DNA of 64,000 nucleotides from an uncultured Acidobacteriota bacterium (lineage in GTDB: Bacteria > Acidobacteriota > Terriglobia > Terriglobales > Acidobacteriaceae): contig CAVZQL010000009.1 of the NCBI GenBank assembly GCA_963777415.1, positions 122,457-186,456 on the forward strand, written 5' to 3'. Below the pieces are notes generated by a model that was not told the origin of the DNA, did no database searches, and was given only the letters and a program-made list of their open reading frames with translations. Positions 1,583 through 60,227 of the stretch are shown here, piece by piece (position 1 is the first letter of the stretch; every line of letters begins with the position of its first letter). The translations under genes and the position numbers were made by a program.

Positions 1583-4500
1583 TTGACGAAGAGGCGATAC
1601 TACCATGTGATGGATCAGACAACCGTCAGCCCGATTCCAGCTCTGTCTTCACGCCTGCAGCCGTACGATGTCGGCTACACCCTAGGTTGTATAGGAGCAC
1701 TGCAGCTCGTTCCGCGAAACGCCGATCAGGCGATCAGGATTGAGGCACTTGCACATGCAGCGGCATGCGTCACGGCAATCGCCGGCAAACCTAATATTAG
1801 CGCCGGGCGCTTACGGCTGATTTGTGACTCTCCCGAATTGTCGAGTTACTCGTGGGCGGAAGATCCCTGCGACGAAATGTTTGTCGAGGAGATGTCATTC
1901 TTCGGTGGTTCCTACCGCGTGATGCCTGGCATCACGGAAGCCGCAACCTTCATCTTGCAGCATCTATCAAAGGCGATATTTCTCGGGTCTCGTGTATTCG
2001 CGCCCAGAGAATTCGTGCGCGAAGCCCGGCTTCTCTTGGGAACTGCTCTCATAATCAGTGAAGAGGTCTCTAGGCGAGCCGGGCTGGCGATCGGCACACT
2101 CCCGATTGCCGCGTATCGCGAGCCGATCGTAGTACCGGATTCAGCTACTTTGCAAAGGCTTCTCGCCGCCGTCACGTTTACGGAGCAAGACTTACGCGAG
2201 TTACTTTCGCGCGCCCGTATACCTGTAGATGTTATCAATACGTACGTCCTGAACAGCGGCAGCATTCGTCCGGAGCAATTCAGCCCCGACTCTGCTCCAT
2301 TACTGTCGCGGCCACTAGTGCGTGCTAATGACAATCTGATCGCGGTTTGTCCGTCTTCTTTGCTGGCCGCTGCTCGTCACGCACTTATCTTGCACGCACA
2401 GCGGCGTGGCGTTCTCGATCAGCTGTCAGAACGCTATAACGCTGCTGTTTGGGACACGCTCAAGACTTCTCTGTCGCATGTTCAGCATGAACCAGTTCCG
2501 TTTGCACCTCCACCGGGCCTGTCGTACGCAGGTTGGAGGGAAGGTCTCTTTCGTTTCGATACAGACAAGCTGATGTACACCATCTTGGTGACGGACCCGC
2601 TGACGGACTACTCTCCAGATGCGGTCTTCGGTAACTGGAGCGATCCCCAGCTGCACGAGGCATTACAGGGCAGGATTCTAGAGGTCGAGACGCAGATATA
2701 TGGCTCCCTACCTTGGGTTAATGAGGTGTTGTTCCTAGTCAGCATGCAAGGGGTCGGCCGCGCTGGCGTTCTTGGTTTCAGCGAGCTGCCGCGCTACTCC
2801 GAACTCCTTGCCGGTTCTGCAGCACACATAGAAACAATGACGCTGGCCGAAGGGGGCGAGCCCCTCGCCCTGTGGAAGTACGCGCAAGCGCGTCGCATAC
2901 TGCGGGATCGTGCGCGTGTAGTGGTTACTTCTGAGGTGGACGAGTTCCAAATGTACCGATCACACAAGCACTCGTTCTACTTCAGCGACGACGTGATGCC
3001 GAATCTGATCTTTATCCCGCCTGGCGAAGGCGGACCTCTGCGTCGAGACGTCGCCGAGAAGCGAGCGTGGCATACCGTGCCTGCCTACGACCGTGGCTAT
3101 TTCCGCAGAGTAACATCCTTGCATGATACGTCTCAAATTCCAATCTATGTTGCTTATCCCCCAGAGTCGAGGCGGGCGGTACTCCTCGAGGGTCTCCCTG
3201 CATACGTTTGGATCATTGCTCCACGCAACTTACCAGAGAACCATGCGTATTTATCCAAGCTCTATGCCCTCATTCTCGACGGCATTGCATATTGGCTATG
3301 GCAGTTCACCCCGTTTTTGCGGCACCGTCTGGAGCCGCTCGCGGGCGAGGTCGTTCGTCTCGATGTGGAATTGGTTCCTGACGCAAAATGGAACGCCGCG
3401 GGCACGGACGAGCAATACACCACTGACGAATTGGCCCAAGCAGTTAAGGTGTCGACTGATCCAGAATTGCGAACGATTTGCGTGAAAGTTACATCGGCCA
3501 TGACTGAGCTACTGGGCACGGCTGACAATCGTGGCGAACGAGAGTTAATGATCCCGATTGTTCGCGCGTTCAACGACATCGTTCCCGAGGAGCGACGTGC
3601 ACTCCTTACCGAAGGAGAACTAGAAATAGCGGCAGACATTTATGCTCCACTTGGACTCAAGAAGATGCTGCTGTTTCTTAAGTCCGAGAACACTCCTCAA
3701 CTTGATCGCCGGGACATCCCTCGCTATCGTCCTGGGCAAGAAGCTGATGTCAACGTTGTATTGGATAGACTCGGTGCACACCTACGTTCTACCCGGCCAG
3801 TCGGCCCAATACTGCCCGAGGAAACCAATGAGGTGATCAAGCACTCAGTTGCATTCTTCATGGCCGAGCTCGAAACCTTGGTCGCTTCACTCTCTCCCAA
3901 GGGGCTCCTTGAGTACTTGATCCGCCAGCATGAAGCGGTGAGCAGGGAGACCGCGTACTCTCGTCTCACACTCCCAACCAGAATCGCTTGCTACGGCTCC
4001 GTCTCCGACATTCGCAACAAGCTGCAAGAGGAGATTCCTGTTCTCTCGAATGCCGCTCTCGCAGGTCGGTTCCTAATTGAGTTTGTGACGGCTGTGCCGG
4101 CCCGAGGCTATCGCCAGATTTCGTTGTCGTGTTTCGATGAGATGCGCGCGCTGGCCTCACACATAGTGAACGACGGGATGTTAAGTGACCTGGTTCACTT
4201 TGAACTCGCAAAGATGAAACTCTCAATCCTCCCCTCTGGACGACTTGGAATTGATGCAGATGAATACAGGTCTGCGATGGACAGCTATTTGGGTGCGTTC
4301 GCGGCCGAGGAAGTGATCAGAAGCCCGCAAAGTTTCTCACTGTCTTGGCGAGACCGATCTGAGAACAAGAGAACAAATTACCTTAACGCACTTGATGCAG
4401 CGACATCTGCGGAATTTGGCACCTCGATTAGCGAACTGTTGGGATTTCTCACCGCGGTAATGAACATCGGATATCAGATCGGACCCGGTGTGTCCGTATT

Positions 4501-5329
4501 GCGCTTCGAAGATCTAATTGCGGAGCTGCGCAGCCAGACTGGGTTTCCCGAGTCGAACGTCAAGCAATACATCGAGCTGTTTTCGCTTGGCCCGCGTACT
4601 CGGTTCTATGACGTGACTCCACCGCACCGCACTGAAGATGTATATCCTTGGCGATTCAATCGTGAGCTGTCGTACCTGAGGCGACCATTGATACGTCGTC
4701 GTCAGATGGATATCGATGAGGTACTTTGGGGTAACAGGCACGTCGAGGATTCAAAGAAGTACCTCTTTCAACTCTGTACATCTGGTCATCTGCGCCCGAG
4801 AACGCCCGAAATGCGTAGGTTTTCCGGAGATACTCATGACCGCCAAGGCGATGCGTTCAATCATGCAGTGGCAGAGTTCTTCCGTTCGCTACCAGGGATG
4901 GGTGTTTGGCCGAAGTTCAAGAAGTTGAAAACACCACATGGCACGTTACGAGCACCGGGCGATATTGACGTGCTTGCTGCTGACCCCAAGCGCGCGTCGA
5001 TATACCCTGTCGAATGCAAGAGCCTGTCTGCTGCCCGCACTCCTTTTGAGCTCGCAACCGAGATGGAGCAACTGCTGGATGGCACGGGAACGCAACGATC
5101 TATGGTCCAGAAGCACATTCTCCGGGTAGAGTGGTGCCAAGAGCACCTACACGAGCTTCTTGGTGTACTGAATCTCGACAGGTCGTTGCGGTGGAAAATC
5201 GTCCCCTATATTGTCGTCGATCAACCTATGGTGACAGTGCATATGAGAAGAAGTCCAATTCCGATTCTCACGTTCAGTGAAATCAAGGAGAGAATGCAGC
5301 AACTTTCAGAGCAGCGTCTGCGTTCATGA
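1583..5329 (+). CDS. large uncharacterised protein (1248 aa) with C-terminal PD-(D/E)xK nuclease-like motif
   Basis: ORF track; TTG at 1583, first ATG at 1610. The C-terminus reads ...AFNHAVAEFF...GDIDVLAADPKRASIYPVECKS... (nt 4958-5020). This fits the D-x(n)-E-x-K core of restriction-endonuclease-fold/NERD-like domains. No Walker A, DEAD/DExH or other familiar motif seen in the first ~1100 residues. Confidence 0.75.
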   Translation: MTKRRYYHVMDQTTVSPIPALSSRLQPYDVGYTLGCIGALQLVPRNADQAIRIEALAHAAACVTAIAGKPNISAGRLRLICDSPELSSYSWAEDPCDEMFVEEMSFFGGSYRVMPGITEAATFILQHLSKAIFLGSRVFAPREFVREARLLLGTALIISEEVSRRAGLAIGTLPIAAYREPIVVPDSATLQRLLAAVTFTEQDLRELLSRARIPVDVINTYVLNSGSIRPEQFSPDSAPLLSRPLVRANDNLIAVCPSSLLAAARHALILHAQRRGVLDQLSERYNAAVWDTLKTSLSHVQHEPVPFAPPPGLSYAGWREGLFRFDTDKLMYTILVTDPLTDYSPDAVFGNWSDPQLHEALQGRILEVETQIYGSLPWVNEVLFLVSMQGVGRAGVLGFSELPRYSELLAGSAAHIETMTLAEGGEPLALWKYAQARRILRDRARVVVTSEVDEFQMYRSHKHSFYFSDDVMPNLIFIPPGEGGPLRRDVAEKRAWHTVPAYDRGYFRRVTSLHDTSQIPIYVAYPPESRRAVLLEGLPAYVWIIAPRNLPENHAYLSKLYALILDGIAYWLWQFTPFLRHRLEPLAGEVVRLDVELVPDAKWNAAGTDEQYTTDELAQAVKVSTDPELRTICVKVTSAMTELLGTADNRGERELMIPIVRAFNDIVPEERRALLTEGELEIAADIYAPLGLKKMLLFLKSENTPQLDRRDIPRYRPGQEADVNVVLDRLGAHLRSTRPVGPILPEETNEVIKHSVAFFMAELETLVASLSPKGLLEYLIRQHEAVSRETAYSRLTLPTRIACYGSVSDIRNKLQEEIPVLSNAALAGRFLIEFVTAVPARGYRQISLSCFDEMRALASHIVNDGMLSDLVHFELAKMKLSILPSGRLGIDADEYRSAMDSYLGAFAAEEVIRSPQSFSLSWRDRSENKRTNYLNALDAATSAEFGTSISELLGFLTAVMNIGYQIGPGVSVLRFEDLIAELRSQTGFPESNVKQYIELFSLGPRTRFYDVTPPHRTEDVYPWRFNRELSYLRRPLIRRRQMDIDEVLWGNRHVEDSKKYLFQLCTSGHLRPRTPEMRRFSGDTHDRQGDAFNHAVAEFFRSLPGMGVWPKFKKLKTPHGTLRAPGDIDVLAADPKRASIYPVECKSLSAARTPFELATEMEQLLDGTGTQRSMVQKHILRVEWCQEHLHELLGVLNLDRSLRWKIVPYIVVDQPMVTVHMRRSPIPILTFSEIKERMQQLSEQRLRS

Positions 5330-5865: not shown

Positions 5866-5972
5866 ACTACAGAAGATGGGCAGACTGCGGGGTTCCGCAT
5901 TGACTGCCCTGCGATGCAAGCAAATGGCTGACACGGGGCGAAAAGCTTCCGACGGCCACATGAGGCGAATGA

Positions 5973-6695
5973 TTGAAGAACGCCAGCACCCCGACAACGA
6001 AGCGACGACCACCGGCAAGGCTCCACTGTACGCCGGTGCGGAGCAATAGTGCCGATGTAATCCTGTCTGCGGCCAAAGAGCTATTTGCGTCGAAGGGATT
6101 TCAGCAGACATCTATTCGCGACATTTGCAGTGCCGCAGGAATTACCCGACCGGTTCTGTACTACTTTTATAAAAACAAAATAGGTCTGTTTCGGGCCGTG
6201 ATGGATAAAGCTCGCCAGCACTTCGCCGAGTACTTTGTTTCGGCAGCCCAAGAGCACCCGCACTTCCGTCAGCAATGTGTTCACCTCACGAGACTGCTCT
6301 TCCATGACGCAGTGAAGAACCCACAGATGTGGCGATTGATGTTACTTAGCGTGTGGTTCGGGGCCACGCCAGCCTGCGATGAACTGCGTGAGTTGCGCGA
6401 AAACATGGTCGGGGTATTGATGCCCGAAAGCAGAAACTTCAGCTCTAGAAACTGCGATCCGCGTGTCAAGGCGGCAGCTTATGCCTATGCCGGCAGCGTG
6501 TCGCTCATGATAGCCAGATATCTGAACACTGGCGAGCCCGACATTTCAAACGTCCAAGCCGAGAGCCTGGTTGCTTCGCTGTTTGACGGGTGCGCAGGTT
6601 TCGCAGCTGGACATGGCTCCTCCTCCACGTCAACAGACAACAAAGGCCAACTCGGCAAGGTTCGCCCCGCTAAGAAAGGACGTCCTCGGCGATAA
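5973..6695 (+). CDS. TetR/AcrR family transcriptional regulator (start may be GTG 6036)
   Basis: N-terminal HTH signature ILSAAKELFASKGFQQTSIRDICSAAGITRPVLYYFYKNKIGLF. Track start 5973 is TTG. GTG at 6036 lies ~10 codons before the HTH, as is usual for TetR proteins. Confidence 0.85.
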   Translation: MKNASTPTTKRRPPARLHCTPVRSNSADVILSAAKELFASKGFQQTSIRDICSAAGITRPVLYYFYKNKIGLFRAVMDKARQHFAEYFVSAAQEHPHFRQQCVHLTRLLFHDAVKNPQMWRLMLLSVWFGATPACDELRELRENMVGVLMPESRNFSSRNCDPRVKAAAYAYAGSVSLMIARYLNTGEPDISNVQAESLVASLFDGCAGFAAGHGSSSTSTDNKGQLGKVRPAKKGRPRR

Positions 6696-8591: not shown

Positions 8592-10655
8592 TTAGTAATC
8601 AGCCCTTGTGATGTTTAGGCGCCGCATCTTGTTCTGTAGGGTAGTCCGCTTGAGTCCGAGGCGCTCTGCGGCGCCTCCGTTTCCGGAGATCCGCCCTGAA
8701 GCCGCCTTGAGGGCGGAGACGATGGCCTGGCGCTCGGCGTCATGGAAGCTGGAAACGAGTTCCGCGCCACGCCCACTGGTTTTACTGAGTTCTGACAGCG
8801 GAACATTCAACTCTTCGCCTTGCGTCAGAATGACAGCTCGCTCAACGAAGTTCTCCAATTCGCGAATGTTGCCCGGCCACGGCGCATTTGCCAGTGCTTC
8901 CATCGCATGCTTGGGGATGGACTTGATGCGTTTTTGCATTCGACGGGCCAATCGCGACACGAAGAAATGGACGAGAAGAGGGATATCCTCGCGACGTTCA
9001 CGAAGCGGGGGGATCTCGATAGGGAACACATTCAGCCGGTAGAACAAATCTTCGCGAAACTGGTTCTCACGGATCATCGCGTGAAGGTCACGATGGGTAG
9101 CAGTGATCAAGCGAACGTCAACGCTGATAGTCCTCCCGCTGCCCAGGCGCTCGAACTCTCGTTCCTGCAATGCTCGCAGTAGCTTCGGCTGTAATTCGAG
9201 GCTGATGTCGCCGATCTCGTCCAGGAACAGCGAGCCGTGGTCGGCCAACTCGAAGCGACCACGTTTCTGCATGAGCGCACCGGTGAATGCGCCTTTCTCG
9301 TGGCCAAACAGTTCGCTCTCCACCAGACCGGAAGGAATCGCTGCACAGTTGAGCCTGACGAAAGTTCGGTCTTTTCTGGGACTCAGACTGTGGATCGCAC
9401 GCGCGATCAGTTCCTTTCCGGTGCCGGTCTCGCCGTGGAGCAAGACCGTGGATGAAGTCGGAGCCACGATAGAGATCTGGTCCAGCACTTTGCGCAGCGC
9501 CGCGCTCTTCCCGACGATGTCTTCGAAGTTGTATTCAGAACGGATTTCCGATTCGAGGTACAGGCGCTCTTCTTCAAGGCGGTGTTTGGAGGCGTTCAGT
9601 CGGCCGAACGCGATCGCGTTCTCCATCGACAAAGCGATCTGGCTGCTGATCTGCGACAACAAGTCCAGATCTGCCTGCCGGAAGCTGTCTGGGTGACGAC
9701 TGCCCATGGTGATCACGCCCAGTGGGCCATTAGCCGTCGCAAGCGGAGCTAGTGCGATCGTCCTGATGGATTCAGCTTCCAACGGTTTACGGAACAGCGA
9801 TGGAAGGTTCTCAATACCATCGCTCGACAGAATTTCATGAGTTCGAGCGCGCATCTTTTCCATATCCTCATCGGTGATCTCCGATACGGGTAGGTCGGCG
9901 AGGAACCCCCTGCTGCTGGGGAAGTCCATGCTGGCGCACTCGAGCTTGTTCGATTCCTTGTCGATGATCCAAAAGCCGGTGAAGTCATTGGCGAAGTATT
10001 TTCGCAACGAAGATGAAGCCGAACAAAACAGCTCGTTCATGTCCAACTTCGAAACAACGTAGTTGTTGATCTCGAGAAGCAGCTTGAGGCGATCACGCTC
10101 CTGCGCGAGTTGGCGCTCGTACGCTCCCGCCGTGTCGATGGCGACGGCACTCTCGATGGCAAGCGCGACGTGCGAGGCCATCGAAGTCATCAGTTCCACT
10201 TCTTCGTCCGTGAACCGTCTCTTTTCAGCGCTGCCAAAGACCAAGGCCCCGAGTCTTCTTCGATGGGTCGAGATCGGGAACAAACACATACTTTGCAGTT
10301 CAACCAGAGGCACACGCGACCGCAGCTCTGGGATTTTCAGCAGTTCGCTTCTCGGGTCGTCGATGAATGCCGGCGTCTGCTCGTCGATTGCACGTCCGAG
10401 TGCCGTACCCGAAAGGGTGATTCGGGGGCTTGGGTTCGGGAGATCGGGAAGGTCGGGAGAACCGTCGAATGCGACGATTCGAGCAGAGCCGGACTGTGAC
10501 TCCAGCAGGAGGAGAGCGGCCAGATCAAAAACGATCACCTGGGATAGAAGCTTGCGCAAGCTGTGCAGGACCGCTTCAACGGTCGGTTGCTCTGCTACAG
10601 TGCTGGATACATCAAGTAAAGTCCGGTAGCGTTCTTCGGTTGCGATGGTCATCAT
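8592..10655 (-). CDS. sigma-54-dependent transcriptional activator, GAF-GAF-AAA+-Fis HTH (FhlA-like architecture)
   Basis: [15 protein letters not shown] (Walker A), [15 protein letters not shown] (GAFTGA sigma-54 contact loop), C-terminal [26 protein letters not shown]. About 380 N-terminal residues have two GAF-like regions. Confidence 0.9.
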   Translation of the reverse strand: MMTIATEERYRTLLDVSSTVAEQPTVEAVLHSLRKLLSQVIVFDLAALLLLESQSGSARIVAFDGSPDLPDLPNPSPRITLSGTALGRAIDEQTPAFIDDPRSELLKIPELRSRVPLVELQSMCLFPISTHRRRLGALVFGSAEKRRFTDEEVELMTSMASHVALAIESAVAIDTAGAYERQLAQERDRLKLLLEINNYVVSKLDMNELFCSASSSLRKYFANDFTGFWIIDKESNKLECASMDFPSSRGFLADLPVSEITDEDMEKMRARTHEILSSDGIENLPSLFRKPLEAESIRTIALAPLATANGPLGVITMGSRHPDSFRQADLDLLSQISSQIALSMENAIAFGRLNASKHRLEEERLYLESEIRSEYNFEDIVGKSAALRKVLDQISIVAPTSSTVLLHGETGTGKELIARAIHSLSPRKDRTFVRLNCAAIPSGLVESELFGHEKGAFTGALMQKRGRFELADHGSLFLDEIGDISLELQPKLLRALQEREFERLGSGRTISVDVRLITATHRDLHAMIRENQFREDLFYRLNVFPIEIPPLRERREDIPLLVHFFVSRLARRMQKRIKSIPKHAMEALANAPWPGNIRELENFVERAVILTQGEELNVPLSELSKTSGRGAELVSSFHDAERQAIVSALKAASGRISGNGGAAERLGLKRTTLQNKMRRLNITRADY

Positions 10656-10747: not shown

Positions 10748-11338
10748 TCAGTTGCACACCGCAGCGTAAGCACAGCACTCTACGAGCATCTGACAATACA
10801 TCGATTCCAGGCACTCAAGGGCAGCGCAGTAGGCTGCTTCGACTGCAGTGCTGCTGACGCCCAGCAACAGAGCAGCTCCAAGCAAGGTACACTTTTCGAC
10901 GCCGCACAAGATCAGGGCGAAACGGGAGAGGATATCCAACCGCATCTCAAGCGCGTCGGAATTTTGAATTAAAGAGTCGAGGAGATCGCCAGCAACTTGT
11001 GGATGACATCGATGAGCGCACGTGCGGCGTTCGTAACTGACAGCTAGTTCTGAAATGCGCCATTGCCGGATCTCGATTGCTGACCTGATAGTAGCGACGC
11101 GCGTCCAGCGTATAAGCCCCTTTTGAAGTACCTGGTCTTGTGCGGTCGCGATATCCACGCTTGCGCTGCCGGATGCGTCGATGACGCAAGCCTCTGCCAC
11201 CTCATCATTACCGGTCAGAAATCCAGCAAGCCACCTGAGTTCGTCCCGATACGACTTGAACGCTCCGCTGATTTCTTCTGCTGTGGCTACCTTCGAAAAG
11301 ATCTCGTCTAATCCGACGGTAATGACTTCGGTTTTCAT
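10748..11338 (-). CDS. divergent ECF-type sigma-factor-like protein, paralog 1 (Cys-rich C-terminus)
   Basis: YRDELRWLAGFLTGNDEVAEACVIDA resembles ECF region 2.1/2.2. WTRVATIRSAIEIRQ resembles region 2.3/2.4. RLDILSRFALILCGVEKCTLLGAALLLGVSSTAVEAAYCAALECL resembles the region 4 HTH. Clear paralogs at 47422-48012 and 57658-58239. Confidence 0.55.
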   Translation of the reverse strand: MKTEVITVGLDEIFSKVATAEEISGAFKSYRDELRWLAGFLTGNDEVAEACVIDASGSASVDIATAQDQVLQKGLIRWTRVATIRSAIEIRQWRISELAVSYERRTCAHRCHPQVAGDLLDSLIQNSDALEMRLDILSRFALILCGVEKCTLLGAALLLGVSSTAVEAAYCAALECLESMYCQMLVECCAYAAVCN

Positions 11339-11364: not shown

Positions 11365-11380
11365 AGCAAAACCAGTGCCA
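11365..11380 (-). promoter_or_regulatory. sigma-54 promoter of ECF-like paralog 1 (and probably the downstream GAF activator gene)
   Basis: The minus strand reads TGGCACTGGTTTTGCT, a full TGGCAC-N5-TTGC consensus. Predicted start ~16 nt before ATG 11338. Confidence 0.8.
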
Positions 11381-30748: not shown

Positions 30749-30940
30749 CTATTCCACTTCTTCTACCCAGTGCGGACGCATGATGATCCGGCCGTGGGAA
30801 TCAGTATCTGGCGCCCACCGCATCCGGAGCGCCTTGTCTTCACTCCACCTGATTCGTAGCTCCTGGATCGTGTCCTCCGTGCGGGCCTCAATAACTCCGA
30901 CTCCCCCGAAGCTCTGAGCGTTCGTCGCCAAAGTAGCCAT
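30749..30940 (-). CDS. small hypothetical protein (63 aa)
   Basis: G/C-rich third codon positions, GGAAGG upstream of the ATG, and a full-consensus sigma-54-type promoter about 20 nt upstream (30971-30986). Confidence 0.45.
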   Translation of the reverse strand: MATLATNAQSFGGVGVIEARTEDTIQELRIRWSEDKALRMRWAPDTDSHGRIIMRPHWVEEVE

Positions 30941-30970: not shown

Positions 30971-30986
30971 AGCAACTGCAGTGCCA
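30971..30986 (-). promoter_or_regulatory. sigma-54 promoter of the 63-aa ORF
   Basis: The minus strand reads TGGCACTGCAGTTGCT (full consensus). Leader ~20 nt containing GGAAGG. Confidence 0.75.
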
Positions 30987-31864: not shown

Positions 31865-31923
31865 ACCCGCCCTCATGTTTTCGTCAATGCGGAAGCCAGT
31901 TTTGACCTAAAATGAGGGCGGGT
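31865..31923. repeat. 12-bp inverted repeat with 35-nt spacer upstream of the kinase gene
   Basis: ACCCGCCCTCAT ... ATGAGGGCGGGT, read directly. Lies between gene 31209-31853 and ATG 31954. Confidence 0.5.
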
Positions 31924-31953
31924 TCCGGCCCTTTCGGCCGCAAAGGTGCGAAA

Positions 31954-34900
31954 ATGGCTTCTCGCCGACGGCTTCTGCTGCACTCCATCTGGCCCCGTAC
32001 AAACGGTTGGGCTCAGGTTGTTCTGGGTCTGCTGGCCAGCATCTTGATCCCTTCTGTTCACGCACTATCGCATCCAGCACAGTACGTCACTACGGTTTGG
32101 CAAACCGAACAAGGTCTTCCCAACAACACGATCGATGCGATGGTGCAGGACAACGAAGGCTATCTGTGGGCAGCGACCAATGCGGGGCTCGCGCGGTTTG
32201 ACGGCGTGCGCTTCAGAGTATTCGCCGCGGAAGATTTTCCCAGCCTTCAATCCAGTCGATTTCAGTCTCTCTACGCAAGCCGCTCCGGAGAGTTGTGGAT
32301 CGGAACCCGGAATGGGGGCCTCATCCGATTGCACGACGGCAGCGTCACCACATACATGGAGCGCGACGGCTTGCCGAGCAAGAACATCAGGTCGATCCGC
32401 GAAGATGCCGAAGGCAAGCTCTGGATCAACACCATCAGCGGCGTAGCTTGCTGCGCCGGCGCGAAGCTACAGCCTGTCACTGCTTACCGAGGGAAACCGG
32501 TCAGCGAATTCTTCTTGCAAGCGCGGGACGCAAGCATGTGGTTTCGCTCCGGAACGGATGTCGTGCGTTTCGGTGCTGATGGCTCCATTGCGACTTTGGC
32601 GGGCGGCTCTATGGCAGCCGAAGCTCGCGACGGGAGCGTGTGGATTGCTTTTCAATCTCAGTCTCGCCTGGTGCGCTATCACCAGGGCGCGTTTTCCGAG
32701 ATAGCTCTCCCAAGCGCCGGACTGCGGCAATGGACGGCCGCGGACCCCTGGCAAGGTGTTGCCATGGAGGGGAATCCCCGACAGGCCGTGCTGGGCATGG
32801 CGACAGACACCGACGGCGAGTTGCTGCTGCTGACAGCCGCCGGATTGATTCGGGTGGTGGACGGCAAACTCGGTCCGCCCGAAGCCCTGCCGCTGCCTGC
32901 CAACAGTGATGCCCCTCCTCGAGTGCTCAGCCTCTTGGTCGATCGTCAAGGCAATCGCTGGGTGGGAACGGTTGGCAGAGGCATGTTTCGTTTTCGCCCA
33001 GCACCGTTGACCGCCTATGGCAAGGACGAGGGCTTGTCGGACGCGCCTTTCCGTGCCGTATTTCAGGATCGCGAGGCCCGCATCTGGCTGGGCGGAGATG
33101 ACGGGATCTACTGGTTCGATGGAAACACCTTCAATCGGGTTCCCGGCCTCGCGCAAATCGGCACCATCACCCAGACAAACGATGGGGACCTGTGGTTTGG
33201 AGGAGCAGGTTCTGTCTACCGCTGGCGCTCGGGCGTGGTGACCCGGTTCAGTATAGATTCGTCAGCCGTGTTCCAAATGTTCCAGGACCGCGAGGGAACG
33301 CTCTGGGCCGTTGCTCCTATGCGCGAGCAAAAATGGCAGCTTCACCGTTTCCGTGACGGGAAGTTCGAGCAGGCGGACGCGGACGCTGTCAATGTCGTGG
33401 AGGACCGCGGCGGTGGCCTATGGATCGCCGGCGTGAACCCGCCAGCGATTCGCTTAGTTCGTGGCGGCAAAACCATCCTTCGATACGACGTGTCGAGTGG
33501 TATGCCCCCCAACGGGGTGCACAGCTTTTGGCAGGATCCGAACGGCGCTTTCTGGTTTTCAACCGCGACCGGACTTTACCGTTTACGAGATGGCAAATTC
33601 GCCGCAATTACGGCCAGAAAAGGCCTGACCACCGAAATCACAAGCATCCTGGATGACGGCGCGGGCAATCTCTGGCTGCCCTCCGAGCACGGAATCTTTC
33701 GCCTCAGTCTGCAGGAGCTGAATGATCTTGCCGACGGAAAACTCCCATCTATTCCGCCCATTTCCTATGGGATCGCCGAAGGCATGAAGAATACCGAATG
33801 CAACGGGGGAGCACCCGGTTCTCTCAAAGCTCGGGACGGACGGTTATGGTTCCCGACCATGCGCGGCGTGGTGGCGGTTGACCCCAATGTCGTTACCGGT
33901 CCTCCGCCTGTCGTGCTGGAGGACGCTTGGGCAAAAAAAGCAAAGCTCGGGCGCAATGATCGGACCTCCGTAACCGCGGGCAACGACACCTTTGATTTCA
34001 CCTTCACGGCCCTGGATCTCTCGGCGCCCGATCGACTTAGGTTCAGGTATCGGCTCGTGCCCTACGACAAGGAGTGGGTGGACGCCGGTACGCGACGTAC
34101 CGCTCACTATACGAACATGCCGCCGGGAGAATACTCGTTCGAGGTCATCGCGGCCAACAGCTTCGGTGTCTGGAGTAACCACGCCGCCGGCGTGCGTTTC
34201 GTTCTGCAGCCGCACTATTACCAGACGAACTGGTTTCGCGCGCTCTGCGTGTTTCTGTTCCTGGCACTGTTGTGGGCCTTCTATGAGTTGCGTGTCCGGA
34301 AATTGCAGCATCAGTTCGAACTTCGCAAGCGCGCCGACGAAGAACGACGCCAAAGTGCGGAACGTTTCCGTGCCATCGCGGATTACACGTACGACTGGGA
34401 AAATTGGTTCGGGGTCGATGGAAAGTTGCTCTGGGTAAACCCCGCCGTTGAGCGTATCACCGGGTACTCGGTCACTGAATGCATGGCCATGCCCGACTTT
34501 CCTGTGCCGATTGTCGCAGACGCTGATCGGGACGCGGTCGCAAGAGAGTTAGCGCAAGCGGTTCAGGGGTCCAGCACGAACGATTTCGAGTTCCGAGTGC
34601 GTCACAAACACGGCTCTCTCGCATGGGTGGCCGCCTCGTGGCAACCAATATACGACTCGCAAGGCGCCAGACTTGGATATCGCGCCAGTCTTCGCGATAT
34701 CGGCAAGCGTAAACAGGCCGAGGAGGCTTTGCAGCAGAGTGAAGCGTATCTGGCGGAAGCGCAACGGCTGAGCCACTCCGGTAGCTGGGCATTGGACTTG
34801 GCCAACGGAATGTACGATTACATTTCCGAAGAAGACTTCCGGATTTTTGGATTAGATCAGCAGGACGGTTCACCAAGCAGGGAGACAGTCTTCCAACGGA

Positions 34901-43593: not shown

Positions 43594-44353
43594 AAGCGAG
43601 TTCGGGCGTCATTGGGTCATAGCGGTACGGCTCCCCAAAAATACGTTCAGCGTGAGCAAGCGCCTCGGGAGTATCTACGTCCTGCCACAGTCCACTCCCA
43701 ATATCGAACGCCCGCAATTTGCGTTTCTGGGCCAGCAGGCGCATGCCGTCCGAGAGCGAACAGTTGCCGTTCACCATGACCCGCTCGAGCGCTGTAAACA
43801 CCGCCGGAGTACACAAGAACATCCCGGTATCTACCGCGTCATACTGGAGAATCTCTTTTCCGATTCCGGCAATGAACTCGCCGTGGCACAGCACCTTCGT
43901 CGCATCGTCCATATCAAAGATGCGCTCCAACTTCCGATCGACCGCCAGGATCACTGAATCCGGCTCCAAAGGTTGTTCAAGCAGGGCTGTTGCCGTTTCC
44001 GGTTCAAAGATATGGTCGGCCATCAGCAACAAGAAGGGCTCCGCAATCAGGTCTCGTGCGGTTAGAACCGAAACTCCGTTCGCTTTGTCGTATCGGGGAT
44101 TCTCGATCACTTCGATCGTCGTTCCCTCGAACTGGCGGCTTGCCGCCCACGAACGCATCGCGTTAGCCCGGAAGCCGGCGACGATGACGAATCGTTCTAT
44201 CCCTGCGTGACGTGCGCCCAGCACGATGTGTTCGATCAGCGGCTGACCATGCAGTTCGACCAGCGGTTTAGGCATGGCGGACTGCAACAAGGGGACGAGT
44301 CGGCTGCCGTTCCCGGCAGCCAGGATCAATGCGGTCTTGGGTGGCTTTGACAT
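43586..44353 (-). CDS. sugar/alcohol-phosphate nucleotidyltransferase (NTP_transferase family)
   Basis: ALILAAGNGSRL...PKPLVELHGQPLIEHIV...MADHIF...DVDTPEAL. ATG 44353 (MSKPPK) has GAGGAA upstream. Overlaps the downstream fusion gene by 8 nt. Confidence 0.85.
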   Translation of the reverse strand: MSKPPKTALILAAGNGSRLVPLLQSAMPKPLVELHGQPLIEHIVLGARHAGIERFVIVAGFRANAMRSWAASRQFEGTTIEVIENPRYDKANGVSVLTARDLIAEPFLLLMADHIFEPETATALLEQPLEPDSVILAVDRKLERIFDMDDATKVLCHGEFIAGIGKEILQYDAVDTGMFLCTPAVFTALERVMVNGNCSLSDGMRLLAQKRKLRAFDIGSGLWQDVDTPEALAHAERIFGEPYRYDPMTPELAYV

Positions 44354-44370
44354 ATTTCCTCTTCTCATTG

Positions 44371-47421: not shown

Positions 47422-48012
47422 TCAGCGGGCGCAGTCGGCCACTGGGCTGACGATCTCATCCACCAACTCCACAAGGTCGCGATTGAGCAACGCGAACGAT
47501 TCCAGGGCTGCGCAATAGGCGGCGTCCAGTGATCTGCGGCTTATGTTCAGCATCGACGCAGCCTCAGAAGCGTCATGGCCCTGCACGCCGCGCAGCACGA
47601 TCGCAAACCGGCAGAGAACATCCATCCTGTGCTTGGCGAAGGCAGAGACTTGCTTCAGCACTTCGCTGACGTGTGGCGCAAGCGGTTCATGGGAATAATG
47701 AAGACAAGGACGTTTCTCGTAAGCATGGGAAAGCGCTGTCAAGCGCCTCTGTTGCATCTCGATCGCAGATCGCACAGTGGCCCTCTTGAGCCAGTCTCCG
47801 AGCCACTCCTGCGCGAGGTACGTCTGCCTCGTTGCGAGCGCGCATGCATCGACGATGCATGCCTCTGCCATCATCCCATCCGCGGTCAAAAAGAAGGCCA
47901 GCCAGTCCAGCTCTGCGCGAGACTGAGTCACCGCTCGCGTGATGTCATCCGTGGTTGCGTAAAAAGCTTCTGACGCTCCCGCTGGCGCGCTTTTCGTGGA
48001 CAAGAAAGCCAT
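47422..48012 (-). CDS. divergent ECF-type sigma-factor-like protein, paralog 2
   Basis: SRAELDWLAFFLTADGMMAEACIVDACALA / WLKRATVRSAIEMQQ / YEKRPCLHYSHEP / MDVLCRFAIVLRGVQGHDASEAASMLNISRRSLDAAYCAALESF. Block-for-block match to 10748-11338 and 57658-58239. Confidence 0.55.
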   Translation of the reverse strand: MAFLSTKSAPAGASEAFYATTDDITRAVTQSRAELDWLAFFLTADGMMAEACIVDACALATRQTYLAQEWLGDWLKRATVRSAIEMQQRRLTALSHAYEKRPCLHYSHEPLAPHVSEVLKQVSAFAKHRMDVLCRFAIVLRGVQGHDASEAASMLNISRRSLDAAYCAALESFALLNRDLVELVDEIVSPVADCAR

Positions 48013-48042: not shown

Positions 48043-49419
48043 CTATTCGAAGCTCCGCGCGCCGCTTCCGAATCCGTTCTTCGCCTGTTTCCAGATCCAC
48101 TTGATCACGCGCGCGTCGTTGTAGCAGTACGCAAGGTTGTGGTTGAGCGTGGAGAAGCAATGCCGCTGGCACGTCTCCTTGATCCCGTTCAACTGCGCGT
48201 AGTCGAACCGGATATCTTCTATGTTTCCCCAGTCGAATGTTGCCGGATACAGGGGGAAGCACGGGGCCAGCGTCCCATCTGTTCGAATCACCACATTGTT
48301 CTGACCCGCACGGCAGTTCCAGTCCGCGAAATGAAGCTCGCCGTCCTCTTCCTGCACGATTCCTGGATTGCAGCGCAGCATCTCTTCCAGTTCGCCGTCT
48401 TTGCCGGTGCCGTCACCGTTCCACCCGACCTCGCGCAGATCCAGACCGGAGGACATGCGCATGAACGTCTTCATTTCCAGCAGCCGCGGCACCGAGTTCA
48501 CCATCTGGTATCCCGCTTTGTTCTTCTCGACGATCCAGTCAACCAGTTCGTCCACCGCCCGCCAATCTTCCGGGCCAATGTAGGTCGGATTATCTTCCAG
48601 GTGCCGGAAGTGGTCGCTCTGATCCAGCATGGGACTTTCATTGATGTGGTAGTCGGTCGCGATGCGGTGCTCGCGCGCCCATTCGGTCAACAGCTTTACG
48701 TCTTCATGGTTATTGCGGCAGATATTGATGTTGAAGAAGGTCAGGTATCCGTGAACGTACTGTTTCCTCAGGGCGTACTCGAGCTTCTTCTGGATCGGAA
48801 CGAACGATTTCGGAAGACTCTCTCTTTCCTCCCATGAATCCACAGCGATATTGAACACGGCTACGCCCGCATCACCCAGCCGATCCGTCAGCTCGGGGCT
48901 CAGCAGACGAGCATTGGTCGCGACATAAACCCACATGCCCTTCTTCGCGGCGTAGTACACGAGCTTATGAATGAACTTGGGACGAAGCAACGGCTCGCCA
49001 CCCATCAGCGCCAGCACACGACCGCCGCGATCATACAGCCAGTCGATCGAGCGGCGCGCGATGTCCTCGCTCATGCCCTTGACCTTGTTATTGAACGAGG
49101 GGCAGTACCAGCAATCCAGATTGCACTTGTACTCGACGAACAGATACGCCGTTATCGGATGAAAATTTCCTGGCAACAACCGCGACCGCAAATAAGGCAC
49201 CAACCATCCGCGCGCACTTCGCGCTAATTGGCCAGCCGTCCACTTGCGCTTTTCCGGCGCCACTTCAGGCCCGGGGTCGCTGCACCTCTCAGGAAAACGT
49301 GGATAGACTGCTTCTGGAAATGACTCGCCACGTTCTTCTGGTGGCAACGGCTGAACGCTTGAGTTCGTCAGCAGGTCGTTCATCGCAACATCGATACGAA
49401 ACTTTGCGGCAGTCACCAT
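48043..49419 (-). CDS. radical SAM protein with C-terminal Cys-rich (SPASM-like) region
   Basis: CNLDCWYC (CxxxCxxC, nt 49102-49125), GGEPLL, and a C-terminal WNCRAGQNNVVIRTDGTLAPCFPLY...CQRHCFSTL. Start moved to ATG 49419 (or 49383) because the upstream 160 codons of the track ORF are R/C/H/W-rich and contain a promoter-like site. Confidence 0.8.
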   Translation of the reverse strand: MVTAAKFRIDVAMNDLLTNSSVQPLPPEERGESFPEAVYPRFPERCSDPGPEVAPEKRKWTAGQLARSARGWLVPYLRSRLLPGNFHPITAYLFVEYKCNLDCWYCPSFNNKVKGMSEDIARRSIDWLYDRGGRVLALMGGEPLLRPKFIHKLVYYAAKKGMWVYVATNARLLSPELTDRLGDAGVAVFNIAVDSWEERESLPKSFVPIQKKLEYALRKQYVHGYLTFFNINICRNNHEDVKLLTEWAREHRIATDYHINESPMLDQSDHFRHLEDNPTYIGPEDWRAVDELVDWIVEKNKAGYQMVNSVPRLLEMKTFMRMSSGLDLREVGWNGDGTGKDGELEEMLRCNPGIVQEEDGELHFADWNCRAGQNNVVIRTDGTLAPCFPLYPATFDWGNIEDIRFDYAQLNGIKETCQRHCFSTLNHNLAYCYNDARVIKWIWKQAKNGFGSGARSFE

Positions 49420-49587: not shown

Positions 49588-49603
49588 AGCACGATGTTTG
49601 CCA
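49588..49603 (-). promoter_or_regulatory. sigma-54-type promoter upstream of radical SAM / ECF-like paralog 2
   Basis: The minus strand reads TGGCAAACATCGTGCT. TTGCCG-ATATTC-AGGCAC is centred 92 bp upstream. Leader ~160 nt. Confidence 0.5.
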
Positions 49604-57185: not shown

Positions 57186-57201
57186 GGGCATTCTACGTGC
57201 A
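57186..57201 (+). promoter_or_regulatory. sigma-54-type promoter of the zinc-ribbon ORF / ECF-like paralog 3
   Basis: GGGCATTCTACGTGCA. Palindrome CTGCCA-TCATGC-GGGCAT is centred 92 bp upstream. Leader ~50 nt. Confidence 0.55.
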
Positions 57202-57261: not shown

Positions 57262-57471
57262 ATGAAAAGTCTAACGAAGGTAGTCGATTACTTGTTCGGG
57301 TGTCATCACGAACATCTCAGTCGTGTATTCACGATCAACAAGCGCAGTTATCGCGTCTGCTGTGATTGCGGCGCAAACTTCGATTTTTCGCTGATCACAA
57401 TGAAAACGCGCTCTGACGCTCGTGACCGCAGCGCCGCGTTCCAGTCGAACGCGCAGCTGAAGGCTGTTTGA
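57262..57471 (+). CDS. small Cys/His-rich (zinc-ribbon-like) hypothetical protein
   Basis: GCHHEH...YRVCCDCG gives CHH plus CxxC ligands. Promoter-like site 50 nt upstream. Precedes ECF-like paralog 3. Confidence 0.45.
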   Translation: MKSLTKVVDYLFGCHHEHLSRVFTINKRSYRVCCDCGANFDFSLITMKTRSDARDRSAAFQSNAQLKAV

Positions 57472-57657: not shown

Positions 57658-58239
57658 ATGAGACCGTTTTTTTTGAAAGCGCAGCGAAATCCGATCCTGA
57701 ACACCCAGCGCGCGACGCCGGAACAACTTCATAACGTCTTCATAGATCATCGACAAGATCTCTACTGGCTGGCCTTGTTCTTGACCGGCGATGAAATTAC
57801 GGCCGAGGCCTGCATCGTCGATGCCTGTGCCCTCGCGACGACCGGCAATAAGGTATTCGCAGAATGGCTTGAGCACTGGGCTCGCAGGTCCACCGTGCGT
57901 TCGGCGATCGACACACAGAAGGGGAGGATCGCCCAGCTCGCGGCTTCCTACGAGCGCCGCCCCTGCTCTCATCGTGACCACCAGCCGTTAGCGCCGGAGA
58001 GCATCACGCTCCTTCGGGACAGCGGTCTCGCTCCTCTTCGCATGGACGCTCTCTGCCGGTTCGCAATCGTCCTACGCGGAATCGAAGGCTATTCCGCTCA
58101 CGAATCCGCCCTGTTGCTGAACATAAGCAGAGCCGTATTCGACGCCGCCTATTGTGCAGCAATGGACACGCTCACGATCTTCCTTGGTGCCGCCCAAGCC
58201 CAACCGGGAGAGGCGGCACTATGCGCCATGACGTGCTGA
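57658..58239 (+). CDS. divergent ECF-type sigma-factor-like protein, paralog 3
   Basis: HRQDLYWLALFLTGDEITAEACIVDACALA / WARRSTVRSAIDTQK / YERRPCSHRDHQP / MDALCRFAIVLRGIEGYSAHESALLLNISRAVFDAAYCAAMDTL. ATG 57658 gives the same length (~193 aa) as the paralogs. Confidence 0.55.
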   Translation: MRPFFLKAQRNPILNTQRATPEQLHNVFIDHRQDLYWLALFLTGDEITAEACIVDACALATTGNKVFAEWLEHWARRSTVRSAIDTQKGRIAQLAASYERRPCSHRDHQPLAPESITLLRDSGLAPLRMDALCRFAIVLRGIEGYSAHESALLLNISRAVFDAAYCAAMDTLTIFLGAAQAQPGEAALCAMTC

Positions 58240-59873: not shown

Positions 59874-60227
59874 CTAATGAACTGTGTGGCTGCGGTGCGC
59901 CGTCCTCACTTCCATCGGCGCAATGGGATGCGTGCGAGCGGGTTCGCCCAGTAGAGCGAGTTGCAGCCGCTCGCAGAGATGCCGCGCGTAGGAGCTCTCC
60001 GCAATGAACGTCGCTCCAATGCGCTTCAACCAATGCAACGCCGCCTCGCCCGCCGAATCGGCGAAGGTTACTTCCGACAGATCCACTACCAGATTTGAAC
60101 TGATATTCCTGGTCGCGAGCAGTTGGATCGTTTCCTCCGCAAAAGAACCGACGAATCGACCCTCTATGCGCATAGTGAGGTCATTGGGCCGTTCCTCAAA
60201 GCTGATACGAAACATTCTGATCTCCAT
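59874..60227 (-). CDS. STAS-domain protein (anti-sigma-antagonist fold)
   Basis: LTMRIEGRFVGSFAEE...NLVVDLSEVTFADSAGEAALHWLKRIGATFIAES. Confidence 0.7.
   Translation of the reverse strand: MEIRMFRISFEERPNDLTMRIEGRFVGSFAEETIQLLATRNISSNLVVDLSEVTFADSAGEAALHWLKRIGATFIAESSYARHLCERLQLALLGEPARTHPIAPMEVRTAHRSHTVH

What the first reader, a model, noticed from the sequence alone, without database searches (positions are those of the whole stretch)
10748..11338. Family of three paralogous ~195-aa ECF-like sigma factors with conserved Cys/His positions and no adjacent anti-sigma gene
ORFs 10748-11338 (-), 47422-48012 (-) and 57658-58239 (+) align block for block:
- L(R/D/Y)WLA(G/F/L)FLT(G/A)(N/D)...AEAC(V/I)(I/V)DA
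- (T/L/A)R(V/R)(A/S)T(I/V)RSAI(E/D)
- YE(R/K)R(T/P)C(A/L/S)H(R/Y)(C/S/D)H
- (L/M)D(I/V/A)L(S/C)RFA(L/I)(I/V)L(C/R)G(V/I)
- A(V/L/F)(E/D)AAYCAA(L/M)

The layout mimics ECF regions 2 and 4: LTGD...AEd.v.d, then W....R.ai, then an HTH of the form R.a..L....G.s..E.A..L.iS. The usual acidic and aromatic residues are replaced, and Cys are invariant at AEAC, at the C-x-H-x2-H site and at AYCAA. The tails are Cys-containing (YCQMLVECCAYAAVCN; CAMTC; ADCAR).

This recalls anti-sigma-independent, Cys-rich-tail ECFs of the CorE type, where metal or redox state controls activity. That link is inference. Three copies in 64 kb, each behind or within a sigma-54-type transcription unit, is unusual.
Basis: partly seen in the sequence, partly recalled or inferred. 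Interest (0 to 1): 0.66.

Follow-up and report, generated by a model that had tools for sequence, protein, structure and literature searches.

The report
Divergent cysteine/histidine-bearing ECF-like sigma paralogs
Three related genes in this acidobacterial window encode a very divergent, uncharacterised branch of the small "ECF" sigma-factor family, switched on by a sigma-54 promoter in the best case, with a probable built-in metal-binding site; the residues that normally grip RNA polymerase and DNA are missing, so they may not be working sigma factors.

Summary
The three ORFs exist as described and are true paralogs (36-44% identity); every listed block and Cys/His position checks out. About 370 representative clusters at 50% identity match the profile at E<=1e-10. 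All 20 related genome loci are Acidobacteriota, mostly Terriglobia, MAGs.

Homology to ECF sigma factors is real but distant:
- All curated HMM hits fall below cut-off.
- Pfam Sigma70_r2 never matches.
- A confident AlphaFold2 model (pLDDT 89.7, pTM 0.84) hits almost only ECF sigma and PhyR sigma-like structures.

Two canonical functional signatures are absent: the acidic DAED core-binding motif of region 2.2 and the basic residues of the region 4.2 recognition helix.

The linker motif C-x-H-x2-H never occurs without the Cys of "AYCAA" (98 of 98 sequences). This suggests a Cys2His2 site tying the linker to sigma-4. A second Cys set (AEAC, DVLCR, C-terminal tail) varies together.

Copy 1 has a perfect sigma-54 promoter and sits upstream of a GAF-GAF sigma-54 activator; the same promoter recurs in seven other loci. 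Copy 2 follows a radical SAM/SPASM gene. Copy 3 follows a small conserved Cys/His protein.

No canonical anti-sigma gene is present, but STAS-like and small Cys/His-protein neighbours recur.

Best reading: sigma-54-driven, metal- or redox-gated ECF-like regulators. A sigma-mimic is a serious rival.

The parts
10748..11338 (-). ECF-like paralog 1 (196 aa, 11 Cys, pI 4.75). It has AEAC, C107-x-H109-x2-H112 and AYC171; the sigma-4.1 Cys is Ser.
11365..11380 (-). Sigma-54 (-24/-12) promoter TGGCACTGGTTTTGCT, 27 nt upstream of the paralog 1 ATG.
   Evidence: The same element lies 35-50 nt upstream of homologs in L002, L009, L010, L012, L013, L015 and L018.
8592..10655 (-). GAF-GAF-AAA+-HTH_8 sigma-54 enhancer-binding protein, 92 nt downstream of paralog 1 on the same strand, with no terminator-like site between them.
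   Evidence: ECF-like followed by EBP also occurs in L016 and L015; an EBP is nearby in L001, L010, L025 and L026.
47422..48012 (-). ECF-like paralog 2 (196 aa) with the full ligand pattern C52, C103, H105, H108, C134, C167. It was the query for the AF2 model.
48043..49419 (-). Radical SAM/SPASM-type gene (458 aa from the ATG at 49419) ending 31 nt upstream of paralog 2. Probably the same transcript.
   Evidence: The order rSAM then ECF-like also occurs in L001, L003, L025 and L026.
49588..49603 (-). Weak sigma-54-like site TGGCAAACATCGTGCT upstream of the rSAM gene, preceded by three tandem 11-nt repeats (49606-49636).
   Evidence: Not conserved in the other rSAM loci, so doubtful.
57658..58239 (+). 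ECF-like paralog 3 (193 aa) with the full ligand pattern.
57262..57471 (+). Small, very conserved Cys/His protein (69 aa; LFGCHH...YRVCCDCG) 187 nt upstream of paralog 3, with no terminator-like site between them.
   Evidence: It lies within 6 kb of the ECF-like gene in 14 of 26 loci.
57186..57201 (+). Sigma-54-like site GGGCATTCTACGTGCA upstream of the small Cys/His gene.
   Evidence: GG-N10-GC sites of the same type precede most homologs of the small gene in other loci (for example L002, L009, L012, L021, L024, L026).
59874..60227 (-). STAS-like (anti-sigma-antagonist fold) small protein 1.6 kb from paralog 3.
   Evidence: It is adjacent to ECF-like genes in L003, L005, L010, L016 and L025 and within about 3 kb in L026.

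Best explanation
The three genes encode members of an uncharacterised, Acidobacteriota-restricted clade derived from ECF (group 4) sigma factors.

**Proposed working**
- The genes are second-tier regulators of a sigma-54 regulon. A GAF-domain enhancer-binding protein activates a sigma-54 promoter directly upstream of the gene, or of the operon carrying it, as hrpL is driven by HrpRS.
- The protein is then controlled by built-in ligand sets, not by a separate anti-sigma factor.
- Site 1 is a Cys-x-His-x2-His motif in the sigma-2/sigma-4 linker plus the Cys of the sigma-4.2 helix (AYCAA). It is a putative Cys2His2 metal site that would pin the linker onto sigma-4 and hold a compact form.
- Site 2 is a second set of Cys: AEAC in sigma-2.2, DVLCR in sigma-4.1 and the C-terminal tail.
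- Metal loss or gain, or thiol oxidation, would shift the protein between the compact state and a state able to engage its target.

**Shown:** paralogy, ECF homology and fold, sigma-54 promoters, gene neighbourhoods, and co-conservation of the ligand residues.

**Inferred:** metal binding, the latch mechanism, and sigma activity itself.
For: **Homology and fold**
- TIGR02983 (SigE family) matches residues 20-165 of copies 2 and 3 (E 5e-5 and 2e-6).
- It also matches 34 of 47 distant family members, best E 6.7e-11.
- Sigma70_r4_2 matches 28 of 45 close members.
- PDB profile hits are SigE, SigD sigma-4, CnrH, SigG1 and PhyR.
- The AF2 model has pLDDT 89.7 and pTM 0.84, with linker blocks at pLDDT 94-96.
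- The top 30 Foldseek hits are all ECF sigma factors or PhyR.

**Sigma-54 control**
- An exact promoter precedes copy 1 and is conserved in seven other loci.
- EBP genes are adjacent.
- No terminator-like site separates the copies from their same-strand neighbours.

**Ligand sets**
- All 98 sequences with the linker C-H-H also have C167. Eighteen keep C167 alone and 30 have neither.
- Joint losses occur in several separate relatives (P0036, P0046, P0050).
- The sigma-4.1 Cys occurs only together with the AEAC Cys (49 against 0).
- A Cys in the last six residues is enriched when both are present (41 of 69 against 14 of 77).

**Selection**
- In one ortholog set, third-codon-position changes dominate (331 against 153 and 115).

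**Precedents from the literature**
- CorE and CorE2 use a linker motif plus a Cys-rich tail. HrpL is sigma-54/EBP driven and has no anti-sigma. ECF43 lacks DAED yet is a real sigma (PMC8999054).
Against: - Pfam Sigma70_r2 never matches, and all curated hits fall below cut-off.
- The DAED position reads x-A-(E/K/A/T)-(A/V)-C.
- The sigma-4.2 helix reads AVEAAYCAALE where canonical ECFs have basic residues. Compare SigD AVRVAQHRALQRL. Mean K+R is 1.4 and mean net charge about -0.2 over 20 residues.
- The best PDB sequence hit for the close family is the non-DNA-binding PhyR sigma-like domain.
- No model coordinates were available, so clustering of the ligands in 3D is untested.
- Co-conservation is confounded by phylogeny.
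- The ligand site is dispensable in some lineages, such as the L007-L014 orthologs and P0050.
- No target promoter motif was found.
- Sigma-54 sites for copies 2 and 3 are weak.
Confidence: 0.45

Rival explanations
1. **Stand-alone sigma mimic (pseudo-sigma).** The protein keeps the ECF fold but no longer binds RNAP core or promoter DNA. It acts by protein-protein interaction, as the sigma-like domain of PhyR titrates NepR. Its partner could be an unidentified anti-sigma-like protein, the recurrent STAS-like or small Cys/His neighbours, or the adjacent enhancer-binding protein. The Cys/His site would set its conformation.
For: - The DAED motif and the basic sigma-4.2 residues are lost.
- The top PDB profile hit of the close family is the PhyR sigma-like domain (2lfw, E 0.003).
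- Pfam PhyR_sigma-like matches 23 of 45 members.
- TM-scores are better to closed, partner-bound forms (SigW/RsiW, CnrH/CnrY, NepR complexes, PhyR; TMq 0.40-0.48) than to holoenzyme-bound sigmas (0.25-0.30).
- The proteins are acidic (pI 4.75-6.6).
- STAS-like genes lie directly beside the gene in L005, L010 and L016.
- Most distant relatives keep basic recognition helices (for example AAKARALEQ and ARARALERI). The loss is therefore derived.
Against: - There is no receiver domain or other known input domain.
- No NepR-like or other anti-sigma gene and no canonical ECF gene lie in the neighbourhoods examined.
- ECF43 shows that lack of DAED does not exclude sigma function (PMC8999054).
- The invariant Arg of sigma-4.1 is kept, and the Ser-Arg at the start of the 4.2 helix is kept in most members.
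- All PhyR hits are below cut-off.
Confidence: 0.35
2. **Ordinary ECF sigma factor.** The protein is a divergent but conventional ECF sigma. Its Cys/His residues are structural only, for example a constitutive zinc site. Regulation would be purely transcriptional, through sigma-54/EBP or the host operon.
For: - The fold and homology are ECF.
- JGI names several members as sigma-24 family proteins.
- A sigma-54 promoter is present.
- HrpL is a precedent for purely transcriptional control.
Against: - The same losses of core-binding and DNA-binding signatures apply.
- The ligand sets are lost repeatedly in close relatives, which does not fit an essential structural site.
Confidence: 0.12
3. **Substrate or partner of the radical SAM enzyme.** For the copy-2 type, the Cys-bearing ECF-like protein is modified by, or works with, the radical SAM/SPASM enzyme encoded 31 nt upstream. 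The modification could be a thioether or another Cys change.
For: - The order rSAM then ECF-like is conserved in five loci (W2, L001, L003, L025, L026).
- The best NCBIfam hits include Cys-peptide maturases, all far below cut-off.
Against: - Most family members have no rSAM neighbour.
- The rSAM protein is far more conserved (73-87%) than the ECF-like protein (45-52%).
- It sits beside lipid and nucleotidyl-transferase genes, so it more likely has a metabolic role.
Confidence: 0.04

Closest known systems
CorE / CorE2 of Myxococcus xanthus (former ECF44, now ECF238)
   Same: An anti-sigma-independent ECF-type protein with a conserved Cys motif in the sigma-2/sigma-4 linker and a short Cys-bearing C-terminal tail. 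In CorE and CorE2 both elements are needed for metal-dependent activity (PMC8999054, PMC7826278).
   Different: - The linker motif here is C-x-H-x2-H, not CxC.
- Further ligands lie inside sigma-2.2, sigma-4.1 and the sigma-4.2 helix.
- No sequence-level grouping with CorE was shown.
- CorE-type proteins are canonical enough to be classified as ECFs; these fall below every curated cut-off.
- Control here is by sigma-54.
HrpL of Pseudomonas syringae (ECF32)
   Same: An ECF-type gene with no anti-sigma factor, transcribed from a sigma-54 promoter under an enhancer-binding protein (PMC8999054). This matches copy 1 and seven homologous loci.
   Different: - HrpL has canonical sigma regions and no Cys/His sites.
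- Here the EBP gene lies downstream in the same putative operon.
- The family occurs as several paralogs placed in different operons.
PhyR sigma-like domain (alphaproteobacterial general stress response)
   Same: An ECF-derived two-domain fold with degenerate core-binding and DNA-binding residues. It is the best PDB sequence hit for the close family (2lfw), and Pfam PF22233 matches 23 of 45 members below cut-off.
   Different: - There is no fused receiver domain and no NepR or EcfG partners nearby.
- The phylum is different.
- Cys/His ligand sets are absent from PhyR.
ECF43 (EcfP) and M. tuberculosis SigC/SigK
   Same: - ECF43 lacks DAED and needs a modification to bind core.
- SigC is thought to be auto-inhibited by sigma-2/sigma-4 contact.
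- SigK has a redox-sensing Cys pair (PMC8999054, PMC7826278).
- All three are precedents for intramolecular control.
   Different: - No Ser/Thr kinase gene was seen next to the genes examined.
- The motifs differ.
- No sequence-level membership was shown.

Membership tests
ECF (group 4) sigma-70 family sigma factors | Two-domain architecture: sigma-2 plus sigma-4 only, about 170-220 aa | tested here: met
   The proteins are 193-196 aa. The AF2 model has two helical bundles joined by a linker. Foldseek top hits are all ECF sigmas or PhyR, with probability up to 1.0.
ECF (group 4) sigma-70 family sigma factors | Matches to Sigma70_r2 (PF04542) and Sigma70_r4_2 (PF08281), or to TIGR02937, above the curated cut-offs | tested here: not met
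   - Sigma70_r2 has no hit in any of 92 members scanned.
- Sigma70_r4_2 scores 14.9-17.2 bits in the window copies against a cut-off of 25.7.
- TIGR02937 scores 13 bits against 42.9.
- TIGR02983 scores 23-28 bits against 141.

ECF (group 4) sigma-70 family sigma factors | Acidic DAED-type motif in region 2.2 for binding the beta-prime clamp helices | tested here: not met
   The alignment to M. tuberculosis SigE places DAED opposite L-A-E-A. Across the family the position reads x-A-(E/K/A/T/S)-(A/V/T)-C.
ECF (group 4) sigma-70 family sigma factors | Basic residues on the region 4.2 recognition helix that contact the -35 element | tested here: not met
   The helix reads AVEAAYCAALES against SigD AVRVAQHRALQRL. 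Mean K+R is 1.4 over 20 residues. The canonical residue pattern is taken from established knowledge of the sigma-E/-35 complex.
ECF (group 4) sigma-70 family sigma factors | Binds RNAP core and directs promoter-specific initiation | not testable with these tools
   This needs biochemistry or ChIP/RNA-seq. No target motif was found.
ECF Hub classification (Casas-Pastor 2021 groups) | Assignment by the group-specific HMMs | not testable with these tools
   The ECF Hub HMMs are not available here. The paper text mentions no matching group with a C-x-H-x2-H linker, STAS or sigma-54 context in Acidobacteria.
CorE-like (ECF44/ECF238) | CxC motif in the sigma-2/sigma-4 linker | tested here: not met
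   The linker reads YER(R/K)(P/T)C-x-H-x2-H.
CorE-like (ECF44/ECF238) | Cys-rich C-terminal extension of about 20-38 aa | tested here: inconclusive
   Tails of about 20-26 aa after AYCAAL carry 1-5 Cys, and many homologs end in CC, CN or CS. The tails are short, variable, and lack Cys in many members.
PhyR-type sigma-like (anti-anti-sigma) proteins | Sigma-like domain fused to a C-terminal receiver domain | tested here: not met
   The proteins end about 25 aa after sigma-4 and have no Response_reg hit.
PhyR-type sigma-like (anti-anti-sigma) proteins | NepR and EcfG partner genes nearby | tested here: not met
   None were seen among the neighbours of 26 loci. NepR is very short and could have been missed.
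HrpL-like sigma-54-dependent ECFs (works-like, not sequence membership) | Sigma-54 promoter directly upstream and EBP control | tested here: met
   Met for copy 1 and seven homologous loci. Evidence is weak for copies 2 and 3. EBP dependence itself is inferred.

The most novel reading that the evidence does not exclude
These proteins may be free-standing sigma mimics. On this reading an ECF fold has lost RNAP and DNA binding and gained an intramolecular Cys2His2 latch between the linker and the sigma-4.2 helix, plus a second Cys site. Several paralogs would be deployed in sigma-54 operons of Terriglobia as metal- or redox-switched decoys or co-regulators. Their partners would be as yet unrecognised; the STAS-like or small Cys/His proteins are candidates. 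That would be a sigma-mimicry system outside Alphaproteobacteria, with a non-phosphoryl input.
Probability: 0.3. Interest if true: 0.75.

Novelty: new variant of a known kind. Interest (0 to 1): 0.52.

Why it matters
- ECF sigma factors are among the main bacterial signalling systems, and their modes of control are still being catalogued.
- This clade would add a control mode that needs no anti-sigma factor: a metal or thiol site built from the inter-domain linker and the DNA-recognition helix itself.
- It would also link the sigma-54 and sigma-70 families in a cascade in Acidobacteria, an abundant soil phylum whose regulation is almost unstudied.
- If the proteins prove to be sigma mimics, sigma mimicry would no longer be limited to the alphaproteobacterial PhyR system.
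- Current annotation either leaves these proteins unnamed or calls them sigma-24. Either practice could mislead regulon predictions.

Tried and rejected
- **hhalign of the family profile against a single E. coli RpoE sequence.** Probability was 5.8% and only sigma-4 aligned. A single-sequence template is uninformative, so I relied on HMM and fold evidence.
- **Model coordinates.** They are not exposed, so ligand distances could not be measured.
- **AF2 of the small Cys/His protein.** pLDDT was 59.9, too low for a meaningful fold search, so none was run.
- **Names from public sources.** None exist for the NCBI members.
- **Rfam scans of the window and of the rSAM leader.** No family matched.
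- **Sigma-54 promoter upstream of the rSAM gene in other loci.** It is not conserved, so sigma-54 control of copy 2 is unproven.
- **Small Cys/His protein as a dedicated partner.** Rejected as a strict rule. The family is much wider (193 clusters) and occurs without an ECF-like gene in L021-L023.
- **PDB sequence search of the rSAM protein.** Only generic radical SAM cores such as viperin were found.
- **Pseudogene or decay.** Rejected, because orthologs show mainly third-position change and the family is large.
- **Literature searches.** No description of this clade was found.

Full report
**1. Observation**

- The three ORFs are present at the stated coordinates.
- They align over their full length (A1). 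Global identities are 36.9% (copies 1/2), 36.2% (1/3) and 43.9% (2/3).
- A family HMM scores them at E of 1e-70 to 1e-77 and finds no fourth copy in the window.
The one slip is that copy 2 has K rather than R in "LKRATV".
- The Cys of DVLCR is Ser in copy 1.

**2. Family and taxonomy**

- A word-indexed search returned 44 clusters at 33-54% identity. Several are named "sigma24 family" by JGI and none by NCBI.
- A full HMM scan of 1.84 billion representatives gave 1043 hits at E<=1e-3, 371 at <=1e-10 and 69 at <=1e-30. The family is sizeable.
- All 20 loci recovered from species-representative genomes are Acidobacteriota MAGs (Terriglobia, Acidobacteriaceae, Korobacteraceae, Acidoferrum), some named as bog or peatland samples.
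- The nearest relatives of the window copies are only 52-68% identical.
- One other contig carries two copies about 37 kb apart (L002 and L018), so paralog clustering recurs.
- Orthologs change mainly at third codon positions: 331 changes against 153 and 115. The genes are under purifying, if relaxed, selection.

**3. Relation to ECF sigma factors**

Sequence evidence is consistent but always below curated cut-offs.
- Sigma70_r4_2 matches the window copies at E 0.004-0.02, and 28 of 45 close members at best 6e-7.
- PhyR_sigma-like matches 23 of 45 close members.
- Sigma70_r2 never matches.
- NCBIfam TIGR02983 (SigE family) aligns residues 20-165 of copies 2 and 3 (E 5e-5 and 2e-6). It matches 34 of 47 distant members, best E 6.7e-11.
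- Profile searches of PDB sequences return only sigma-type proteins at the top. These are the PhyR sigma-like domain, CnrH and M. tuberculosis SigE (full length) for the close family. For the wider family they are SigD sigma-4, PhyR and SigG1.

Structural evidence agrees.
- An AF2 model of copy 2 built on the 45-sequence alignment is confident: pLDDT 89.7 and pTM 0.84. The non-helical linker (residues 100-112) falls in blocks of pLDDT 94-96.
- The best 30 Foldseek hits in the PDB are all ECF sigma factors or PhyR. Probability reaches 1.0 and E is about 1e-3 to 1e-1.
- TM-scores are higher to closed or partner-bound forms (0.40-0.48) than to holoenzyme-bound sigmas (0.25-0.30).

Homology and the sigma-2/sigma-4 fold are therefore established. 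Membership by curated criteria is not.

**4. What is missing**

- In the alignment to M. tuberculosis SigE, the region 2.2 "DAED" motif falls opposite "LAEA", followed by the conserved Cys. Across the family even the Glu varies. The review PMC8999054 records that these acidic residues normally contact beta-prime, and that ECF43, which lacks them, needs phosphorylation.
- In region 4.2 the recognition helix reads "(S/R)xAVEAAYCAALE". SigD has "GAVRVAQHRALQRL" and Pfam's consensus is similarly basic.
- Over 20 residues the family averages 1.4 Lys+Arg and a net charge of about -0.2.
- Most of the most distant relatives still carry basic helices such as AAKARALEQ and ARARALERI. The loss is therefore derived within this clade.
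- The three window proteins are acidic, with pI 4.75, 5.86 and 6.58.

**5. The Cys/His positions**

In copy 2 numbering the candidates are C52 (AEAC, sigma-2.2), C103-x-H105-x2-H108 (linker), C134 (DVLCR, sigma-4.1) and C167 (AYCAA, sigma-4.2). Counts below cover 146 full-length family sequences.
- The complete pattern occurs in 49.
- All 98 sequences with the linker C-H-H also have C167. Eighteen keep C167 without the linker motif, and 30 have neither.
- Joint losses appear in separate close relatives, for example P0036, P0046 and P0050, which is 57% identical to copy 1.
- C134 occurs only where C52 is present (49 against 0). Both are often Ser or Ala (SCHHAC 16 times).
- A Cys within the last six residues is enriched when C52 and C134 are both present (41 of 69 against 14 of 77).

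I read this as two coupled sites.
- Site 1 is a Cys2His2 site linking the linker to the sigma-4.2 helix.
- Site 2 is a Cys site linking sigma-2.2, sigma-4.1 and the tail.

This is inference. Co-conservation is confounded by phylogeny, and I could not obtain model coordinates to measure distances.

**6. Genomic context**

*Copy 1*
- An exact TGGCAC-N5-TTGC lies at 11366-11380 (-), 27 nt upstream of the ATG. Only two exact matches occur in the window against 0.15 expected.
- The same element lies 35-50 nt upstream of the start codon in L002, L009, L010, L012, L013, L015 and L018.
- Ninety-two nt downstream, with no terminator-like site between, is a GAF-GAF-AAA+-HTH_8 enhancer-binding protein.
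- EBP genes also flank homologs in L001, L010, L015, L016, L025 and L026.

*Copy 2*
- It starts 31 nt after a radical SAM/SPASM-type gene. The same order occurs in L001, L003, L025 and L026.
- The only sigma-54-like site upstream of that gene (49588-49603) is weak and not conserved.

*Copy 3*
- It lies 187 nt after a 69-aa protein with an invariant LFGCHH...YRVCCDCG core.
- That gene is preceded by a GG-N10-GC site (57186-57201). Sites of the same type precede most of its homologs in other loci.
- The small protein family is much wider than the ECF-like family (193 clusters).
- It can occur with EBPs but without an ECF-like gene (L021-L023). It is a regulon companion, not a proven partner.

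*Other recurrent neighbours*
- A STAS-like protein matches SpoIIAA and TM1442 at E 2e-4 to 3e-3, and its phospho-Ser position is not conserved.
- It lies directly beside the ECF-like gene in L005, L010 and L016. It lies upstream of rSAM then ECF-like in L003 and L025. It is 1.6 kb from copy 3.
- No canonical anti-sigma domain was found in the flanking genes scanned.
- Efflux (OEP) operons, Usp and glycogen genes (GlgX, GlgP) also recur.

**7. Interpretation**

- The best-supported account is a sigma-54 to ECF-like regulatory tier, as with HrpRS and HrpL. The product would be gated by intrinsic metal or thiol sites, functionally like CorE and CorE2 (PMC8999054; PMC7826278).
- The proteins lack both hallmark interaction surfaces, and the close family's best PDB sequence match is PhyR's sigma-like domain. 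A stand-alone sigma mimic is therefore nearly as likely.
- My confidences are about 0.45 for the gated-regulator reading and 0.35 for the mimic. A plain, constitutively active ECF gets about 0.12.
- A role as rSAM substrate is unlikely in general, because most members lack that neighbour.

**8. Novelty**

- The text of the ECF re-classification paper (PMC7826278) and the non-canonical ECF review (PMC8999054) describes no group with a C-x-H-x2-H linker. Neither describes a STAS or radical SAM association, and Acidobacteria appear only in unrelated groups.
- Three literature searches found no description of this clade.
- I could not run the ECF Hub HMMs, so an existing unnamed group cannot be excluded.
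- I rate the finding a new variant of a known kind. It is of moderate interest, and higher if the mimic or latch reading is confirmed.

Noticed in passing
window 49460-49535 (-), upstream of the radical SAM gene; also L026 about 4470-4550, L003, L025, L001: A conserved nested inverted repeat (CACGGGC ... GGGTGCG-loop-CGCACCC .. GCCCGTG) lies about 50-110 nt before the rSAM start codon in five loci. RNAalifold predicts 17 pairs, 3 of them with compensatory changes. There is no Rfam match. It may be a leader RNA or attenuator.
   Followed up: partly
window 49606-49636 (-): Three tandem copies of an 11-nt unit (GCATTCTGCAC) lie immediately upstream of the weak sigma-54-like site at 49588-49603. 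They may be a regulator binding array.
   Followed up: no
window 57262-57471 (+): A 69-aa protein has an invariant core LFGCHH..LSRVFTI....YRVCCDCG. Among 56 aligned homologs (51% mean column identity), 20 columns are invariant. It matches no Pfam or NCBIfam family. It is usually preceded by a sigma-54-type site and often lies near GAF-EBPs and glycogen phosphorylase. The AF2 model was low confidence (pLDDT 60), with a helix plus three strands resembling a zinc ribbon.
   Followed up: partly
window 59874-60227 (-): A STAS-like small protein family has a conserved Cys near the C-terminus and no conserved phospho-Ser. It recurs next to the ECF-like and rSAM genes in other loci.
   Followed up: partly
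window 30972-30986 (-) and ORF 30749-30940 (-): The second exact sigma-54 promoter in the window (TGGCACTGCAGTTGC) lies about 32 nt upstream of a 63-aa ORF of unknown function.
   Followed up: no
whole window, e.g. 5850, 11727, 25481, 31163, 53878, 57014, 60933: The window is enriched in sigma-54 promoter-like sites: 21 with up to 2 mismatches against 13 expected, a count reached by 1 of 100 shuffles. Several lie just upstream of gene starts: the OEP efflux operon at 11789, glgX at 56986 and the TetR gene at 5973. A second EBP gene lies at 38900-40306.
   Followed up: partly
window 41227-44368 (-) and 51175-51972 (-): A fused HpnL-like membrane protein and CDP-alcohol (inositol-phosphate type) phosphatidyltransferase, together with two nucleotidyltransferases, flank the rSAM and copy 2 region. 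This suggests a membrane-lipid head-group cluster around the radical SAM gene.
   Followed up: no
window 1583-5329 (+) and 31912-37776 (+): There are two very large ORFs of 1248 aa and 1954 aa. The first has no Pfam match at E<=1e-3. The second was not examined.
   Followed up: no
L007, L009, L011-L014 (ECF-like genes at about 5970-6552): In this ortholog group, which sits next to glycogen genes and the small Cys/His protein, the linker Cys is lost (YEKSEPAHLKH) while AYC is mostly kept. L012 also has AYS. This looks like stepwise decay of the putative metal site.
   Followed up: partly
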